From: a virus | Taxonomy: Duplodnaviria > Heunggongvirae > Uroviricota > Caudoviricetes | Direction: 5' to 3' (one strand) | Virus record (IMG/VR): IMGVR_UViG_3300029796_000320 | DNA: 5,453 nt | Shown here: positions 1-4,215 of the stretch, piece by piece | Numbering within the stretch: position 1 is the first letter of the stretch | Layout of the letters: every line of letters starts with the position of its first letter | Notes under the pieces: model-generated | Databases searched by the model: none | Told to the model about the DNA's origin: nothing | What the model saw: the letters and a program-made list of their open reading frames with translations, nothing else | Program-made: the position numbers and the translations under genes

Positions 1-351
1 ATGGAAGATAAATTGAAGATCAACATGAAGCGCCAGTGGCCTGAACCAAAAGATGGTGAGCCTCGCTTGCACATTAAAGAACCCGACAACTCTCCGCTAA
101 CTCCGGATGGTTGGGTTATAGTGCCGAAGAAACTAACCGCTGAGAACGGCGCTAAGGGTGTGCTATCCGGTGAATTTTCAGAAACTACGTTTATAAGCTG
201 CCCGGAATGCTTTGGTGATGATGATTGCGAAACTTGTGACTGCAGCGGGAGAATCGAAATCAAGGTTACAGTCAGTTGGACAACTATCAAAACTATTTGG
301 GCTAAAGGGTGTGAGCACTTTTCAATAGTAGCACCGCAGCAAGATGGGTGA
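1..351 (+). CDS. Hypothetical phage accessory protein with a Cys4 zinc-knuckle-like motif (CxxC-x5-CxxC); start uncertain and possibly 5'-truncated by the window edge
   Basis: Open frame runs from window position 1 to a TGA at 349-351, in the same orientation as xis/int (the early-leftward transcription direction). Motif C-P-E-C-F-G-D-D-D-C-E-T-C-D-C is encoded at nt 199-243. No family recognised from memory. Confidence 0.5.
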   Translation: MEDKLKINMKRQWPEPKDGEPRLHIKEPDNSPLTPDGWVIVPKKLTAENGAKGVLSGEFSETTFISCPECFGDDDCETCDCSGRIEIKVTVSWTTIKTIWAKGCEHFSIVAPQQDG

Positions 352-477
352 TGAAAACAAGTATTTATAACTTAAAAGCATTAAAAAATCGCTTATAGAT
401 CAAAAGAAATCTACGTCAAATATCACTATATTTCAATGTGTTATAATTACCCCGTCCATAAAATGGGGAGACACAAA

Positions 478-720
478 ATGTTCAAACGCTGCATCACCAA
501 GTGTGGAAGCACACCTGACATTCAAGCTTTTATTAATGAAGATGGTAAGCTTGTTGTTGAGAGGAGTGGTCCTTTTATTAGCAAACAACTTATCATTACC
601 TCTCCAGCGGAGATGGCAGGGGAATGGATAGTTTCTGAACCAGAGGAGTGGCACATCCCGCTTCCTTATGGCCCTCAGGGACTGATTTATAACCGTTATG
701 TTCAGAAGGAGGCGGGTTGA
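478..720 (+). CDS. Hypothetical small phage protein, 80 aa from the ATG at 478 (an in-frame ATG at 436 would give 94 aa)
   Basis: GGAG at 467-470 sits 7 nt upstream of the ATG at 478; the upstream ATG at 436 has no Shine-Dalgarno and would overlap a TATAAT-like hexamer at 443-448. Same strand as xis/int. No recognisable motif. Confidence 0.45.
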   Translation: MFKRCITKCGSTPDIQAFINEDGKLVVERSGPFISKQLIITSPAEMAGEWIVSEPEEWHIPLPYGPQGLIYNRYVQKEAG

Positions 721-999
721 CAATGTCAGGCATAACATCGCCGAGAAATCGAAAGAAAAACAGAACAAGGTAAACGTTGACCTTGCAGCATCAGGCATGG
801 AGTACAGAGAGCGCCTTAACATACCTGTTATCACTGAGCAGGTAGCATGAGAGCAACCTGAGCACTCACGCGAGTATTTCATGGAGCGCATCAGATACTA
901 TCGCGAGCAGTCGTTAAACATGCCCAAGGGAAGCAACCCATGGTATATCGAGATGGATGAACAGAACGCCAAGAAGTAAACGCAATTTGAACGAATGCG

Positions 1000-1025
1000 A
1001 ACCCGCCGAGTGCGGGTTTTCTTTT
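1000..1025 (+). terminator. Candidate rho-independent terminator
   Basis: Perfect 7-bp stem aacccgc (1000-1006) / gcgggtt (1012-1018) with loop cgagt, followed by ttttctttt. Confidence 0.55.
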
Positions 1026-1030
1026 ACCTG

Positions 1031-1055
1031 AACTCGCTACGGCGAGTTTTGTTTT
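1031..1055 (+). terminator. Second terminator-like hairpin, or a 5'-UTR structure of the downstream ORF
   Basis: Perfect 7-bp stem aactcgc (1031-1037) / gcgagtt (1042-1048) with loop tacg, followed by ttttgtttt. It ends only 3 nt before the GGAG of the next ORF. Confidence 0.4.
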
Positions 1056-1068
1056 ATGGAGACAAGAA

Positions 1069-1413
1069 ATGTCAGATTTGGCTATGAAGGTTTTGAAATG
1101 GCAATCGACTGGCGATGTTGGCATCAGTAGCGCAACTCTTGCCTCAATCGCATGTGGACTGAAAAAGAATATCTATGGTCATAGCTTCGGTGCTCCACAT
1201 GACGCAGCCGATTTCAGACGATGCGTTGCACTTGTTGAGCAGATTCCAGAAATCAGAGATTCATTCAACAAGGTTGCAAAGCGCGTTCCGGCATTCAAAG
1301 GAATCCTCAACGAATGGGATTCCCTCGTTGCTCTGTTGAAGTCTGAAATGAAGATACACGGAAACAAAGCACCAGAGACTTACAGAAGAATCAGCGAGCT
1401 ACGCAAGGACTAA
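1069..1413 (+). CDS. Hypothetical 114-aa phage accessory (moron-like) protein of unknown function
   Basis: ATG at 1069 preceded by GGAG at 1058-1061 (7-nt spacing); clean 345-nt ORF on the xis/int strand. Sits between two terminator hairpins and the pI/xis region. Lambda coordinates as I recall them (orf55 and ea8.5 upstream of xis) do not map onto any ORF here, so the region looks mosaic relative to lambda. Confidence 0.6.
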   Translation: MSDLAMKVLKWQSTGDVGISSATLASIACGLKKNIYGHSFGAPHDAADFRRCVALVEQIPEIRDSFNKVAKRVPAFKGILNEWDSLVALLKSEMKIHGNKAPETYRRISELRKD

Positions 1414-1504
1414 CCATGAAATAACACCGCCTCACACTCGATGAGGCCTGTTCATTGCTCAATGATATCCAGACCTACCATCGCCGCATCAATGCGGCTT
1501 TTTC

Positions 1505-1518
1505 TTGCGTGTAATTGC
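1505..1518 (+). promoter_or_regulatory. cII-binding box (TTGC-N6-TTGC) of the Int promoter pI
   Basis: TTGC at 1505-1508 and 1515-1518 separated by 6 nt, immediately upstream of the xis ATG at 1531. In lambda the cII-activated pI promoter overlaps the start of xis, so its transcript encodes Int but not intact Xis. Confidence 0.6.
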
Positions 1519-1530
1519 GGAGACTTTGCG

Positions 1531-1749
1531 ATGTACTTAACACTTCAGGAGTGGAACGCTCGCCAGCGACGCCCAAGAAGCCTTGAAACAGTTCGTCGAT
1601 GGGTGCGCGAATGCAGGATATTCCCTCCTCCTGTTAAGGATGGAAGAGAGTATCTGTTCCACGAATCAGCGGTAAAGGTTGACTTAAATCGACCAGTAAC
1701 AGGTAGCCTTTTGAAGAGGATCAGAAATGGGAAGAAGGCGAAGTCATGA
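1531..1749 (+). CDS. xis: Excisionase Xis (72 aa)
   Basis: Translation MYLTLQEWNARQRRPRSLETVRRWVRECRIFPPPVKDGREYLFHESAVKVDLNRPVTGSLLKRIRNGKKAKS matches lambda Xis as I recall it. GGAG at 1519-1522 is 8 nt before the ATG. The 3' end overlaps the int start by 23 nt, as in lambda. The track ORF starting at 1441 is an in-frame upstream extension, not the real start. Confidence 0.93.
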   Translation: MYLTLQEWNARQRRPRSLETVRRWVRECRIFPPPVKDGREYLFHESAVKVDLNRPVTGSLLKRIRNGKKAKS

Positions 1750-2797
1750 GCGCCGGGATTTACCCCCTAATCTTTATATAAGAAACAATGGATATTACTG
1801 CTACAGGGACCCAAGGACGGGTAAAGAGTTTGGATTAGGCCGAGACAGGAGGATAGCAATCACTGAAGCAATACAGGCCAACATTGAGTTATTTTCAGGA
1901 CACAAACACAAGCCTCTGACAGCGAGAATCAACAGTGATAATTCTGTTACGTTACATTCATGGCTTGATCGCTACGAAAAAATCCTCGCCAGCAGAGGAA
2001 TCAAGCAGAAGACTCTCATAAATTACATGAGCAAAATTAAAGCAATAAGGAGGGGTCTGCCTGATGCTCCACTTGAAGACATCACCACAAAAGAAATTGC
2101 GGCAATGCTCAGTGGATACATAGACGAGGGCAAGGCGGCGTCAGCCAAGTTAATCAGATCAACACTGAGCGATGCATTCCGAGAGGCAATAGCTGAAGGC
2201 CATATAACAACAAACCCGGTCGCTGCCACTCGCGCAGCAAAATCAGAGGTAAGGAGATCAAGACTTACGGCTGACGAATACCTGAAAATTTATCAAGCAG
2301 CAGAATCATCACCATGTTGGCTAAGACTTGCAATGGAGCTGGCTGTTGTTACCGGGCAGCGAGTTGGTGATTTATGCGAAATGAAGTGGTCTGATATCGT
2401 AGATGGATATCTTTATGTCGAGCAAAGCAAAACAGGCGTAAAAATTGCCATCCCTACAACATTGCATGTTGATGCTCTCGGGATATCAATGAAGGAAACA
2501 CTTGATAAATGCAAAGAGATTCTTGGCGGAGAAACCATAATTGCATCTACTCGTCGTGAACCGCTTTCATCCGGCACAGTATCAAGGTATTTTATGCGCG
2601 CACGAAAAGCATCAGGTCTTTCCTTCGAAGGGGATCCGCCTACCTTTCACGAGTTGCGCAGTTTGTCTGCAAGACTCTATGAGAAGCAGATAAGCGATAA
2701 GTTTGCTCAACATCTTCTCGGGCATAAGTCGGACACCATGGCATCACAGTATCGTGATGACAGAGGCAGGGAGTGGGACAAAATTGAAATCAAATAA
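1727..2797 (+). CDS. int: Tyrosine site-specific integrase Int, lambda type (356 aa)
   Basis: 356 aa beginning MGRRRSHERRDLPPNLYIRNNGYYCYRDPRTGKEFGLGRDRR, near-identical to lambda Int from memory. The tyrosine-recombinase catalytic context is present (HELRSLSARLY, LLGHKSDTMASQYRDD with the C-terminal nucleophilic Tyr). The stop codon (2795-2797) lies inside the P' arm, as in lambda. Confidence 0.97.
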   Translation: MGRRRSHERRDLPPNLYIRNNGYYCYRDPRTGKEFGLGRDRRIAITEAIQANIELFSGHKHKPLTARINSDNSVTLHSWLDRYEKILASRGIKQKTLINYMSKIKAIRRGLPDAPLEDITTKEIAAMLSGYIDEGKAASAKLIRSTLSDAFREAIAEGHITTNPVAATRAAKSEVRRSRLTADEYLKIYQAAESSPCWLRLAMELAVVTGQRVGDLCEMKWSDIVDGYLYVEQSKTGVKIAIPTTLHVDALGISMKETLDKCKEILGGETIIASTRREPLSSGTVSRYFMRARKASGLSFEGDPPTFHELRSLSARLYEKQISDKFAQHLLGHKSDTMASQYRDDRGREWDKIEIK

Positions 2798-2890
2798 TGA
2801 TTTTATTTTGACTGATAGTGACCTGTTCGTTGCAACAAATTGATAAGCAATGCTTTTTTATAAGGCCTACTTAGTATAAAAAAGCAGGCT
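2794..2890. other. attL (B-O-P') recombination site: P' arm with Int arm-type sites and IHF H' site, 15-bp core, and start of the bacterial B arm
   Basis: Core ttagtataaaaaagc at 2871-2885 is the reverse complement of GCTTTTTTATACTAA. Arm-type sites, read as reverse complements: P'3 2794-2803 (AAATCATTAT), P'2 2805-2814 (CAGTCAAAAT), P'1 2815-2825 (CAGGTCACTAT). An IHF-like element caacaaattgata at 2833-2845 is the reverse complement of TATCAATTTGTTG. Bacterial flank aggcttca follows the core. Confidence 0.85.
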
Positions 2891-2931
2891 TCAACGGATT
2901 CATTTTTCTATTTCATAGCCCGGAGCAACCT

Positions 2932-4215
2932 GTGAACACATTTTCAGTTTCCCGTCTGGCGCTGGCATTGGCTTTTGGCGTGACGCTGACCGCCTGTAGC
3001 TCAACACCGCCCGATCAACGTCCTTCTGATCAAACCGCGCCTGGTACCTCTTCTCGCCCGATTCTGTCGGCAAAAGAAGCGCAGAATTTCGATGCTCAAC
3101 ACTATTTTGCATCCCTGACACCAGGTGCGGCAGCGTGGAATCCTTCCCCGATTACCCTGCCTGCGCAACCTGACTTTGTTGTCGGCCCGGCGGGTACTCA
3201 AGGTGTAACGCATACCACGATTCAGGCGGCGGTAGATGCGGCAATTATCAAGCGTACCAACAAGCGCCAGTATATTGCCGTGATGCCTGGTGAGTATCAG
3301 GGAACGGTGTATGTCCCTGCCGCTCCGGGTGGAATTACTCTGTACGGTACAGGTGAAAAACCGATTGATGTGAAGATTGGGCTTTCCCTTGATGGTGGCA
3401 TGAGCCCTGCCGACTGGCGTCACGACGTCAACCCGCGCGGCAAATATATGCCAGGTAAACCGGCGTGGTATATGTACGATAGCTGCCAGAGTAAACGCAG
3501 CGACAGTATCGGTGTTCTCTGCTCTGCGGTCTTCTGGTCACAAAACAATGGCCTGCAACTGCAAAACCTGACCATCGAAAACACGCTGGGCGATAGCGTA
3601 GATGCGGGTAACCATCCGGCGGTGGCACTACGTACTGATGGCGACAAAGTGCAGATCAATAACGTCAACATTCTCGGTCGTCAGAACACCTTCTTTGTCA
3701 CCAACAGCGGTGTGCAGAACCGTCTGGAAACGAATCGTCAGCCGCGTACGCTGGTGACCAACAGCTATATTGAAGGGGATGTGGACATCGTTTCTGGTCG
3801 CGGCGCAGTGGTGTTCGATAACACCGAATTCCGCGTGGTGAACTCCCGTACCCAGCAAGAAGCGTATGTGTTTGCACCGGCTACGCTGTCCAACATTTAC
3901 TACGGTTTCCTCGCCGTAAACAGCCGTTTCAATGCTTCCGGTGATGGTGTGGCGCAACTGGGCCGCTCGCTGGATGTTGATGCTAATACCAACGGTCAGG
4001 TGGTGATCCGTGATAGCGCCATCAACGAAGGTTTTAACACGGCGAAACCGTGGGCCGATGCGGTGATCTCAAATCGTCCGTTTGCGGGTAACACCGGCAG
4101 CGTTGATGATAAAGACGAAATACAGCGCAATCTGAATGACACAAACTACAACCGCATGTGGGAATACAATAACCGCGGCGTGGGTAGCAAAGTGGTTGCA
4201 GAGGCGAAGAAGTAA
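2932..4215 (+). CDS. ybhC: YbhC, outer-membrane lipoprotein of the pectinesterase-like / acyl-CoA thioesterase family (427 aa)
   Basis: GTG start at 2932 with GGAG at 2922-2925. N-terminal lipoprotein signal MNTFSVSRLALALAFGVTLTAC with lipobox LTAC. Full-length match to E. coli YbhC from memory. Its position next to attλ agrees with the K-12 gene order ybhJ-ybhC-attλ-ybhB-bioA. Confidence 0.93.
   Translation: MNTFSVSRLALALAFGVTLTACSSTPPDQRPSDQTAPGTSSRPILSAKEAQNFDAQHYFASLTPGAAAWNPSPITLPAQPDFVVGPAGTQGVTHTTIQAAVDAAIIKRTNKRQYIAVMPGEYQGTVYVPAAPGGITLYGTGEKPIDVKIGLSLDGGMSPADWRHDVNPRGKYMPGKPAWYMYDSCQSKRSDSIGVLCSAVFWSQNNGLQLQNLTIENTLGDSVDAGNHPAVALRTDGDKVQINNVNILGRQNTFFVTNSGVQNRLETNRQPRTLVTNSYIEGDVDIVSGRGAVVFDNTEFRVVNSRTQQEAYVFAPATLSNIYYGFLAVNSRFNASGDGVAQLGRSLDVDANTNGQVVIRDSAINEGFNTAKPWADAVISNRPFAGNTGSVDDKDEIQRNLNDTNYNRMWEYNNRGVGSKVVAEAKK

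What the first reader, a model, noticed from the sequence alone, without database searches (positions are those of the whole stretch)
1..351. Cys-rich accessory ORF with a CxxC-x5-CxxC zinc-knuckle-like motif at the window edge
The protein carries a compact Cys4 cluster (CPECFGDDDCETCDC, nt 199-243) reminiscent of DnaJ-type CxxCxG zinc knuckles or a small zinc ribbon, plus a further Cys near the C-terminus. Small zinc-binding proteins in the early-left region of lambdoid phages are often host-takeover or regulatory factors. The ORF starts at window position 1, so it may be longer.
Basis: seen in the sequence. Interest (0 to 1): 0.45.

Follow-up and report, generated by a model that had tools for sequence, protein, structure and literature searches.

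The report
Zinc-knuckle tail of prophage pyrophosphohydrolase protein
The Cys-rich "small ORF" is the cut-off tail of a longer prophage protein: a known dATP/dGTP pyrophosphohydrolase (DUF550) domain followed by an uncharacterised, widely shuffled ~85-residue phage domain whose acidic hairpin is probably stapled by one DnaJ-type zinc site.

Summary
Nt 199-243 encode CPECFGDDDCETCDC in an ORF that is open from nt 1 to the stop at 349-351.

The ATG at nt 1 is internal. Residues 1-30 are the last helix of a PF04447 (DUF550, MazZ-like dATP/dGTP pyrophosphohydrolase) domain. In E. coli ERP001, 100% identical over nt 1-1000, the frame is open for another 107 codons back to an ATG with a Shine-Dalgarno sequence, giving 223 aa.

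From about nt 85 to 348 lies a separate domain with no Pfam, NCBIfam or PDB relative:
- an LTAENGAK..GEF motif;
- a β-hairpin whose tip carries CxxC-x5-CxxCxGxG;
- a W.TIK helix.

The AlphaFold2 model has pLDDT 87. An exhaustive profile search finds 1,479 clusters (50% identity). The near-identical module is fused to very different N-termini (DUF550, DUF551, Ea22-like, Lar, many unknown) or stands alone. The DNA homology breakpoint at nt 87 coincides with the domain boundary.

The four knuckle Cys are kept in 70 of 77 diverse homologues, with variable spacing. Six distant homologues replace them with a short acidic loop. The fifth Cys (C81) and sixth Cys (C104) are not conserved.

The hairpin is always acidic (about −6), which argues against nucleic-acid binding.

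It is not a DnaJ. Function is untested; a zinc-stabilised protein-interaction module is my best inference. Interest is moderate to low.

The parts
1..90 (+). C-terminal helix of a PF04447 (DUF550, MazZ-like dATP/dGTP pyrophosphohydrolase) domain, cut by the window edge. The ATG at nt 1 is an internal Met (residue 108 of the 223-aa ORF reconstructed from E. coli ERP001).
   Evidence: Pfam matches aa 1-30 to profile positions 67-96 of 97 (32.3 bits, cut-off 23). The full domain is seen with the upstream sequence of ERP001, E=4.4e-42. The region aligns with the C-terminus of MazZ, 7ody. There is no Shine-Dalgarno sequence before nt 1, but AAGGA precedes the upstream ATG.
85..348 (+). Portable C-terminal module of about 88 aa, an uncharacterised domain that is the real subject of the finding. 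A mosaic DNA breakpoint lies at nt 87.
   Evidence: E. coli genomes with other N-termini match the window only from nt 87 onward. The 120 closest homologues carry 98 different N-terminal parts. The exhaustive search finds 1,479 clusters. There is no Pfam or NCBIfam hit. The AF2 model has pLDDT 87.1.
133..177 (+). LTAENGAKGVLSGEF motif (aa 45-59), the most conserved segment of the family. It comprises an extended segment and a short helix (aa 51-55).
   Evidence: At least 90% of 79 diverse sequences share L, T, A, E, N, G, A, L, G, E and F here, and the Lys is invariant. The motif is also present in homologues that lack the Cys cluster.
178..198 (+). First β-strand of the hairpin (aa 60-66, SETTFIS).
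   Evidence: AF2/DSSP strand at module residues 33-39.
199..249 (+). Cys4 knuckle CPECFGDDDCETCDCSG (aa 67-83): two DnaJ-type CxxCxGxG-like half-sites at the acidic tip of the hairpin. The predicted Zn ligands are C67, C70, C76 and C79. C81 is a G-to-C variant.
   Evidence: Read directly from the sequence. The knuckle lies between the two AF2 strands.
250..270 (+). Second β-strand of the hairpin (aa 84-90, RIEIKVT). It carries a rare P90T change at a near-invariant Pro.
   Evidence: AF2 strand at module residues 57-63. Pro is present in 271 of 273 homologues.
277..330 (+). C-terminal amphipathic helix W93-TTIKTIWAKGCEHFSIV (aa 93-110), with an invariant Trp and conserved IK.I. The non-conserved C104 lies here.
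   Evidence: AF2 helix at module residues 66-83. W is invariant and K and I are at least 90% conserved. C104 is V or I in most homologues.
349..354 (+). Tandem stop codons TGA TGA.

Best explanation
SHOWN. Window nt 1-351 is the 3' part of a prophage early-left (exo-xis, Ea22-locus) gene. Its product, about 223 aa in the identical ERP001 sequence, has three parts:
- a short Ea22-type leader;
- a complete DUF550 (PF04447) MazZ-like dATP/dGTP pyrophosphohydrolase domain;
- a C-terminal module of about 88 aa.

The module is an independent, mobile domain. It is found near-identical behind very different N-termini, and also as 74-100-aa stand-alone phage proteins in Alpha-, Beta- and Gammaproteobacteria. 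It is under purifying selection.

INFERRED FROM SEQUENCE AND MODEL. The module folds as an N-terminal extended segment (LTAENGAK), then a β-hairpin, then a C-terminal helix. The four conserved Cys (C67, C70, C76, C79) sit at the hairpin tip as two DnaJ-type CxxCxGxG half-sites. They most likely bind one structural Zn2+ that staples a strongly acidic loop, much like the single zinc site of anti-TRAP or one centre of the DnaJ Cys-rich domain.

INFERRED MECHANISM (least certain). The module is neither a nucleic-acid binder nor a chaperone. It is a zinc-stabilised protein-protein interaction or assembly module. It would be the constant part that recombination attaches to many different effector or leader domains, here the pyrophosphohydrolase. 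The invariant LTAENGAK surface and the acidic hairpin would contact a conserved host or phage partner, or mediate oligomerisation.
For: Identity and truncation:
- PF04447 straddles nt 1.
- 19 of the 25 best-matching records that cover nt 1-1000, at 96.8-100% identity, annotate a DUF550 or dATP/dGTP pyrophosphohydrolase protein there.
- In ERP001 the frame is uninterrupted from an SD-preceded ATG.
- The reconstructed protein matches PF04447 at profile positions 1-96 of 97, E=4.4e-42.
- DUF550 activity is documented in PMC12884076.

Module mobility:
- 98 distinct N-terminal parts among 120 homologues.
- 1,479 clusters in the exhaustive search. In 132 of the 144 newly retrieved representatives among the 150 best hits, the module is C-terminal.
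- Partner domains among those representatives: DUF550 x11, DUF551 x10, Ead_Ea22 x6, Lar x2, ASCH/DUF3850.
- Stand-alone versions occur in a Cupriavidus prophage early region and as a moron among head genes.
- The DNA breakpoint is at nt 87.

Selection: dN/dS is 0.12-0.22.

Fold: AF2 pLDDT 87.1, pTM 0.67, with the Cys loop between two strands.

Zinc knuckle of DnaJ type:
- Cys4 is conserved across 33-41% identity with spacers of 2-14 residues.
- PDB profile hits to 2ctt, 1exk and anti-TRAP.
- hhalign E=1e-4.
- Sub-threshold PF00684 hits in homologues.

Against nucleic-acid binding: hairpin net charge averages -6.4 in 77 homologues.
Against: - No metal-binding, oligomerisation or partner data exist. 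The mechanism is inference only.
- The upstream part was read from a genome identical over nt 1-1000, not from the window's own source. That source is not in the complete-genome collection.
- Six distant family members lack the Cys cluster, and ST64B Sb31 lacks Cys1, so zinc is dispensable for at least some members.
- Foldseek finds no significant structural relative in the PDB or BFVD, so the fold comparison is uninformative.
- I could not inspect model coordinates to verify tetrahedral Cys geometry.
- The first AF2 run, with a shallow alignment, failed (pLDDT 46).
- The window's copy carries rare changes at near-invariant positions (G81C, P90T) and 7 nonsynonymous to 2 synonymous differences from the IAI1 copy. 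This particular copy may be drifting in a decaying prophage.
Confidence: 0.6

Rival explanations
1. A small (116-aa) stand-alone Cys-rich zinc-binding accessory protein starts at nt 1 and acts as a host-takeover or regulatory factor.
For: An ATG sits at nt 1 and the frame is open to nt 351. Stand-alone versions of the module do exist in other phages.
Against: - Residues 1-30 are the end of a PF04447 domain.
- In the identical ERP001 sequence the frame continues 107 codons upstream to an SD-preceded ATG, and there is no SD before nt 1.
- RefSeq annotates a DUF550 protein across this point in the 19 records among the 25 best matches that cover nt 1-1000.
Confidence: 0.03
2. A genuine DnaJ-family co-chaperone fragment, as RefSeq names some homologues 'molecular chaperone DnaJ'. 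It would use the zinc finger to hold unfolded substrates and cooperate with DnaK.
For: - Source names.
- The family profile hits DnaJ Cys-rich domains in the PDB.
- PF00684 gives sub-threshold hits in homologues.
Against: - There is no J domain.
- Only two of the four CxxCxGxG repeats are present.
- The window protein gives no PF00684 hit at E<=10, and homologues score 14.9-25.3 bits against a cut-off of 32.7.
- hhalign similarity is confined to 27 columns.
- No NCBIfam model matches.
- The loop is strongly acidic. From my own knowledge, the DnaJ Cys-rich domain is instead Gly- and basic-rich.
Confidence: 0.04
3. A nucleic-acid-binding zinc ribbon: a small transcription or replication regulator that binds DNA or RNA through the Cys4 knuckle.
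For: - Cys4 knuckles and ribbons often bind nucleic acids.
- The neighbours include a TraR/DksA-type zinc protein and a theta-like gene.
- Weak sequence matches to the Rpb3 zinc loop, E=1-2.6.
Against: - The net charge of the hairpin region averages -6.4 and is negative in 75 of 77 homologues, including the Cys-less ones.
- No basic patch is conserved.
- There is no Foldseek match to zinc ribbons.
Confidence: 0.06
4. The Cys cluster is not a zinc site. It is a redox-active or disulfide or Fe-S centre, as in the DnaJ-like zinc-finger proteins of plastids that have disulfide-isomerase activity. Alternatively it has no metal and the hairpin is stabilised by disulfides.
For: - Extra Cys are common near the cluster: C81 here, and CCC variants in homologues.
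- Cys-less members show that the scaffold folds without metal.
Against: - From established knowledge, CxxC...CxxCxGxG spacing in a cytoplasmic bacterial or phage protein is typical of structural Zn.
- The extra Cys are not conserved.
- No experimental data exist either way.
Confidence: 0.1
5. The module is functionally tied to dNTP-pool enzymes. It would regulate or localise nucleotide hydrolases, rather than being a general adaptor.
For: - DUF550 is the commonest identifiable fusion partner, in 11 of 144 representatives.
- A nucleoside-triphosphate pyrophosphohydrolase lies two genes upstream in Vibrio phage D93.
- An HD-superfamily hydrolase lies two genes upstream in phage SKA5.
Against: - Most partners are unrelated: DUF551, Ea22-like coiled coils, Lar, and many with no Pfam match.
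- Stand-alone copies lack such neighbours.
- These enzymes are common in early regions anyway.
Confidence: 0.12

Closest known systems
DUF550 / PF04447 dATP/dGTP pyrophosphohydrolase (MazZ-type MazG-like enzymes of phages, PDB 7ody)
   Same: - Window aa 1-30 match the C-terminal end of the profile.
- The reconstructed protein matches profile positions 1-96 of 97 at 142.7 bits.
- An EALE...EWAD (ExxE...ExxD) motif is present upstream.
- The C-terminal helix aligns with MazZ.
   Different: - Only the last ~30 residues lie in the window.
- This phage is a lambdoid prophage with no sign of a Z-genome (2-aminoadenine) system.
- The enzyme carries an extra C-terminal zinc-knuckle module and an Ea22-type leader.
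DnaJ cysteine-rich (CR) zinc-finger domain, PF00684 (PDB 1exk, 2ctt)
   Same: Two CxxCxGxG-type motifs (CPECFGDD and CETCD[G/C]SG) lie at the tip of a β-hairpin. The family profile hits 2ctt at E=7.8e-4 and 1exk at E=0.0099, and hhalign gives E=1e-4.
   Different: - Two repeats and one predicted zinc, instead of four repeats and two zincs.
- No J domain or DnaJ C-terminal domains.
- Below the Pfam cut-off.
- Acidic rather than Gly- and basic-rich.
- Embedded in a different scaffold (LTAENGAK segment plus C-terminal helix).
Anti-TRAP (PF15777, PDB 2bx9), a 53-aa single-zinc DnaJ-like protein of Bacillus
   Same: A small protein with a single zinc site built from two DnaJ-like CxxC motifs, acting by protein-protein interaction. 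This is the best functional analogy for a one-zinc CR-type knuckle. Weak hits: E=1.8 in the PDB search and 1.1e-4 for homologue P0323.
   Different: - No significant sequence or fold match for the window protein (11.7 bits against a cut-off of 32).
- Anti-TRAP lacks the LTAENGAK and W.TIK elements.
- Any oligomerisation of the module is untested.
Lambda Ea22 and the ead/Ea22-like family (PF13935), exo-xis region pro-lysogenic proteins
   Same: - Same genomic locus, between exo and xis in the pL operon.
- Some module-bearing proteins are annotated Ea22 or have PF13935 N-termini.
- Same modular design: leader, then middle part, then exchangeable C-terminal domain (PMC10834534).
   Different: - The paper on the lambda Ea22 C-terminal domain mentions no cysteine, and 'zinc' only in a reference title.
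- No PDB sequence or Foldseek hit to that domain.
- The window protein has no PF13935 match.
Lambda Ea8.5 hybrid homeodomain/zinc-finger (PDB 2M7A) and Orf73 (TraR-like C4 zinc protein)
   Same: Small zinc-binding proteins of the same exo-xis region.
   Different: No sequence or fold similarity was detected. The scaffold and the Cys spacing are different.

Membership tests
PF04447 (DUF550, dATP/dGTP pyrophosphohydrolase) | HMM match above the Pfam gathering score | tested here: met
   The window fragment scores 32.3 bits against a cut-off of 23, covering only profile positions 67-96 of 97. The 223-aa ORF reconstructed from ERP001 scores 142.7 bits, covering profile positions 1-96.
PF04447 (DUF550, dATP/dGTP pyrophosphohydrolase) | MazG-type acidic metal-binding motif (ExxE...ExxD) on the helices | tested here: met
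   EALE and EWAD were read in the upstream sequence of ERP001. That sequence lies outside the window and comes from a genome identical only over nt 1-1000.
PF04447 (DUF550, dATP/dGTP pyrophosphohydrolase) | dATP/dGTP to dNMP + PPi activity | not testable with these tools
   The activity is reported for DUF550 and MazZ of Z-genome phages (PMC12884076). It has not been measured for lambdoid prophage members.
DnaJ CR domain (PF00684) / DnaJ chaperones | Four CxxCxGxG repeats forming two zinc centres | tested here: not met
   Only two motifs are present, at aa 67-74 and 76-83.
DnaJ CR domain (PF00684) / DnaJ chaperones | HMM score at or above the gathering cut-off (32.7 bits) | tested here: not met
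   The window protein gives no PF00684 hit at E<=10. Distant homologues score 14.9-25.3 bits.
DnaJ CR domain (PF00684) / DnaJ chaperones | J domain with an HPD motif | tested here: not met
   No DnaJ/J-domain Pfam or NCBIfam hit in the full 223-aa protein or in homologues.
DnaJ CR domain (PF00684) / DnaJ chaperones | Local CxxCxGxG motif similarity | tested here: met
   Profile against PDB: 2ctt at E=7.8e-4 and 1exk at E=0.0099. hhalign: 27 columns, E=1e-4, probability 56%.
Anti-TRAP (PF15777) | HMM score at or above the cut-off (32 bits) | tested here: not met
   The IAI1 homologue scores 11.7 bits. The best homologue scores 22.6 bits. The PDB hit to 2bx9 has E=1.8.
Ead/Ea22-like (PF13935) and the lambda Ea22 C-terminal domain | PF13935 match, or similarity to the solved Ea22 C-terminal domain | tested here: not met
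   No PF13935 hit for the window ORF or the 223-aa protein. PF13935 occurs only in the N-termini of 6 of 144 other module carriers. The Ea22 C-terminal domain does not appear among the PDB sequence or Foldseek hits.
Structural Cys4 zinc knuckle (generic) | Four Cys conserved across divergent homologues | tested here: met
   At least 4 Cys in 70 of 77 diverse homologues. Six have 0-1 Cys and one has 3.
Structural Cys4 zinc knuckle (generic) | Stoichiometric Zn2+ bound by the four Cys | not testable with these tools
   This needs metal analysis.

The most novel reading that the evidence does not exclude
The ~75-88-aa module (LTAENGAK, acidic Zn hairpin, W.TIK helix) is a previously undescribed and very widespread phage domain family. 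It counts at least 1,479 clusters at 50% identity across proteobacterial temperate phages. It would act as a common targeting or inhibitory 'warhead'. For example, an acidic, DNA-mimic-like or anti-defence hairpin could bind one conserved host protein, and recombination would couple it to many different effector domains, including a dNTP pyrophosphohydrolase.
Probability: 0.15. Interest if true: 0.6.

Novelty: new variant of a known kind. Interest (0 to 1): 0.32.

Why it matters
For annotation:
- The window-edge ORF should not be called a small zinc protein.
- Its relatives should not be called 'molecular chaperone DnaJ'.
- RefSeq splits an uninterrupted 223-aa frame into a pseudogene fragment and a 182-aa CDS.

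[quoted passage not shown] Here one conserved, un-named zinc-knuckle domain is the constant element of a hypervariable set of Ea22-locus proteins. That gives a defined target for partner-finding experiments and a candidate for a new curated domain family.

If the module recruits the DUF550 enzyme to a partner, it would also link phage dNTP-pool manipulation to a specific host target. None of this is surprising enough to rank high without experimental data.

Tried and rejected
- AF2 on a shallow alignment of 19 close homologues gave pLDDT 46 and was discarded. A 79-sequence alignment including distant homologues was needed.
- Foldseek against the PDB and BFVD gave no significant match: best E=2.5 and 0.07. 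Only small Cys-rich 'DnaJ'- or 'CR-type'-named viral proteins overlapped the hairpin.
- Pfam and NCBIfam gave nothing for the module.
- PHROGs gave only unknown-function families: phrog_60 and phrog_17234.
- PADLOC gave nothing.
- Rfam gave nothing in the window.
- Literature searches for Ea22+DnaJ and for DnaJ-like zinc fingers in phages found nothing on this module.
- I looked for a conserved gene neighbour that could hint at function. Contexts in ST64B, Klebsiella VLCpiS13b, SKA5, Serratia OS31, Pseudomonas pAN, Vibrio D93, a Cupriavidus prophage and a metagenomic phage contig differ, beyond being early or accessory regions.
- I could not find the window's exact source. No complete E. coli genome matches all 5,453 nt from nt 1. 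ERP001 is identical only over nt 1-1000 and has a different integration module.
- I considered and rejected homology of the whole module to DnaJ C-terminal domain I plus zinc finger. This was suggested by the 2ctt alignment of 'ELTFNQAAKGV' with 'LTAENGAK'. hhalign supports only the 27-column Cys motif.
Full report
**1. Observation**

Frame 1 of the + strand is open from nt 1 to a TGA at 349-351, which is followed by a second TGA. The translation contains ...FISCPECFGDDDCETCDCSGRIEI... A sixth Cys (C104) lies in KGCEHF.

The window as a whole is the left end of a lambdoid prophage integrated at the lambda attachment site. After the finding ORF come:
- a small ORF at 478-720 (phrog_9613);
- a theta (HolE)-like gene at 698-979;
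- an ORF at 1069-1413 (phrog_1229);
- an excisionase (PF07825, E=1e-40) and a tyrosine integrase at 1727-2797;
- the 15-bp lambda att core GCTTTTTTATACTAA at 2871-2885;
- the chromosomal genes ybhC and ybhJ.

The + strand is therefore the direction of pL transcription, and the finding lies in the exo-xis (ea) region.

**2. The ORF is cut by the window edge and begins inside a known domain**

Pfam places residues 1-30 on positions 67-96 of the 97-position profile PF04447 (DUF550, 'dATP/dGTP pyrophosphohydrolase'), at 32.3 bits against a cut-off of 23. PHROG families align the ORF to their C-terminal ends, for example phrog_17234 positions 129-202 of 203.

A megablast of nt 1-1000 finds 83 E. 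coli genomes covering at least 80% of the query. Among the 25 best-matching records, the 19 that cover nt 1-1000 annotate a DUF550 or dATP/dGTP pyrophosphohydrolase protein across window nt 1.

In strain ERP001, 100% identical over nt 1-1000, the frame stays open for 107 more codons. It runs back to an ATG preceded by AAGGA. No Shine-Dalgarno sequence precedes window nt 1. The resulting 223-aa protein matches PF04447 over profile positions 1-96 of 97 (residues 42-137, E=4.4e-42). It shows the MazG-type EALE...EWAD motif. Its C-terminal helix aligns with MazZ, PDB 7ody.

DUF550 has the same dGTP/dATP-to-dNMP activity as MazZ in Z-genome phages (PMC12884076).

Caveat: no complete E. coli genome in the collection matches the window from nt 1 over its whole length. 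The upstream part is therefore inferred from near-identical relatives.

**3. The Cys-rich part is a separate, mobile domain**

E. coli genomes such as IAI1 match the window only from nt 87 onward. They have a different N-terminus on the same C-terminal ~88 aa, and RefSeq calls these proteins 'molecular chaperone DnaJ', 'ead/Ea22-like' or 'hypothetical'. The DNA breakpoint at nt 87 coincides with the end of the PF04447 match at aa 30.

Evidence for mobility:
- Among the 120 closest protein clusters there are 98 distinct N-terminal parts.
- An exhaustive HMM search of 1.84 billion representatives finds 1,479 clusters at E<=1e-3 and 1,066 at E<=1e-10.
- The 144 newly retrieved representatives among the 150 best hits carry a near-identical module in proteins of 143-442 aa that share less than 50% identity overall. 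The module is C-terminal in 132 of them.
- Recognisable partner domains are DUF550 (11), DUF551 (10), Ead_Ea22 (6), Lar (2) and ASCH/DUF3850 (1). Most partners have no Pfam match.

The module is present in sequenced phages: E. coli SKA5 and PhiR40_1 (annotated 'Ea22'), Salmonella ST64B Sb31, and Klebsiella and Enterobacter phages. More distantly it occurs in Serratia OS31, Pseudomonas pAN and Vibrio D93. A search seeded with the distant members returned 64 proteins. Many are stand-alone proteins of 74-100 aa, from Cupriavidus, Pantoea, Pectobacterium, Acetobacter and metagenomes. One lies in a prophage early region next to RecT and SSB, and another sits as a moron among head genes.

The module itself has no Pfam, NCBIfam or PADLOC match, and only unknown-function PHROGs. 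dN/dS against phage copies is 0.12-0.22.

**4. Anatomy**

A 79-sequence alignment shows three conserved elements:
- h-h-M-P-x-x-LTAENGAK-x-x-L-x-GEF, at least 90% conserved with an invariant Lys;
- a variable, Cys-bearing insert;
- V-x-V-x-W-t-T-IK-x-I-Y/W, with an invariant Trp.

With this alignment AlphaFold2 gives pLDDT 87.1 and pTM 0.67. In ORF numbering the model has:
- an extended N-terminal segment and a short helix at aa 51-55;
- a strand at 60-66;
- the Cys loop at 67-83;
- a strand at 84-90;
- a helix at 93-110.

The Cys4 cluster therefore sits at the tip of a β-hairpin. A shallow alignment had failed (pLDDT 46). Foldseek finds no significant relative in the PDB or BFVD.

**5. The Cys cluster**

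In the enteric subfamily the consensus is CPECFGDD[DE]C[ED]TCDGSG, which is two DnaJ-type CxxCxGxG half-sites. The window's C81 replaces the first Gly of the second motif, a variant seen in 20 of 273 homologues. C104 is Val or Ile in most homologues.

In 77 diverse homologues at least four Cys are present in 70, with CxxC-to-CxxC spacers of 2-14 residues. Six distant members have no cluster and carry a shorter acidic loop instead. ST64B Sb31 has lost the first Cys.

The hairpin region has a mean net charge of -6.4 and is negative in 75 of 77 homologues, with or without Cys.

The family profile hits the solved DnaJ Cys-rich domains (2ctt E=7.8e-4, 1exk E=0.0099) and, weakly, anti-TRAP (E=1.8). 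hhalign aligns 27 columns of the knuckle to DnaJ repeats 3-4 (E=1e-4, probability 56%). PF00684 hits in homologues stay below the gathering score.

**6. Interpretation**

Shown:
- the finding is the 3' part of a gene for a leader-DUF550-module protein;
- the module is an independent, selected and heavily shuffled phage domain.

Inferred from sequence and model:
- the four conserved Cys bind one structural zinc that staples the acidic hairpin tip;
- this resembles one centre of the DnaJ Cys-rich domain, or the single site of anti-TRAP.

Some members do without Cys, while the LTAENGAK and W.TIK elements are near-invariant. The zinc site therefore looks like a stabilising insert, and the conserved surface is elsewhere.

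The consistent acidity argues against nucleic-acid binding. The absence of a J domain, the presence of only two of the four repeats and the sub-threshold scores argue against a DnaJ chaperone.

My best, and explicitly speculative, mechanism is a zinc-stabilised protein-protein interaction or assembly module. It would serve as the constant part of Ea22-locus proteins and here be attached to a dNTP pyrophosphohydrolase. A weaker alternative is a specific link to dNTP-pool enzymes. This rests on DUF550 being the commonest partner and on NTP-PPase or HD-hydrolase neighbours in Vibrio D93 and SKA5.

**7. Comparison with what is known**

The N-terminal 30 residues belong to PF04447, so that membership test is met. 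The module is not a member of PF00684, PF15777 or PF13935, and it is not related to the solved lambda Ea22 C-terminal domain or to Ea8.5. It shares with DnaJ and anti-TRAP only the CxxCxGxG-type zinc motif.

The literature held here describes Ea22 as modular and pro-lysogenic with an unknown partner (PMC10834534, PMC7093339). It does not mention this module.

**8. State of this copy**

Relative to the IAI1 copy, the window's module has 7 nonsynonymous and 2 synonymous differences. These include G81C and a P90T change at a Pro conserved in 271 of 273 homologues. Neighbouring genes in related prophages carry internal stops. This copy may be drifting, but the counts are too small to tell.

**9. 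Verdict**

Novelty is modest. This is a known motif in an un-named but very common phage domain, fused here to a known enzyme domain. Interest is 0.32.

Noticed in passing
window 698-979 (+), TGA at 848-850: A theta (HolE/Hot-like, DNA polymerase III theta subunit) homologue is interrupted by an in-frame TGA. The theta-like frame continues after it (...ITEQVA*EQPEHSREYFMERIRYY...). The same TGA is present in ERP001 and IAI1, where RefSeq flags 'internal stop'. It is either a conserved nonsense mutation or possible readthrough.
   Followed up: partly
window 999-1019 and 1030-1049 (+): Two tandem, mutually similar terminator-like hairpins (GAACCCGC...GCGGGTT-TTC and GAACTCGC...GCGAGTT-TTG), each followed by a T-run. 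They lie between the theta-like gene and the phrog_1229 ORF, inside the leftward early operon.
   Followed up: no
window 2871-2885 (-), with int at 1727-2797 and ybhC at 2932-4215: An exact lambda att core GCTTTTTTATACTAA lies between int and ybhC. The window therefore spans attL of a prophage at the classical lambda attB site.
   Followed up: yes
L002 (E. coli ERP001) 5680-6351, equivalent to window nt 1-351 plus 321 nt upstream: RefSeq splits an uninterrupted 223-codon frame, which has an SD-preceded ATG, into two features. One is a 'partial' pseudogene (5680-5805). The other is a 182-aa 'DUF550 domain-containing protein' whose annotated start is an ATT codon. This is probably an annotation artefact of the mosaic N-terminus.
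   Followed up: partly
L002 7000-8200 compared with window 1000-2900: ERP001 shares nt 1-1000 at 100% identity but then carries a different integration module (a TorI-type excisionase and a DUF4942 fragment, next to csc sucrose genes) instead of lambda-type xis/int at ybhC. The same ea-region cassette is thus joined to different integration modules.
   Followed up: no
window 241-243 (C81) and 268-270 (T90): The window's copy has substitutions at near-invariant positions of the module: G81C (20 of 273 homologues) and P90T (Pro in 271 of 273). It also shows 7 nonsynonymous to 2 synonymous differences from the IAI1 copy. This suggests possible relaxed constraint.
   Followed up: partly
L010 (Salmonella phage ST64B sb31), module at about 2494-2760: Sb31 (277 aa) carries the module with the first zinc-ligand Cys replaced by Phe (SFPECLADEECESCDGSG). 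It is a natural three-Cys variant in a sequenced phage.
   Followed up: no
L008 6001-6243: A stand-alone 80-aa homologue of the module sits as an oppositely oriented moron between capsid and portal/Mu-F-like head genes of a metagenomic phage contig.
   Followed up: no
window 478-720 and 698-850: The phrog_9613 ORF (80 aa from the ATG at 478) overlaps the start of the theta-like ORF by 23 nt. Its ribosome-binding region is embedded in a CCCCGTCCATAAAATGGGG inverted repeat at about 451-469.
   Followed up: no
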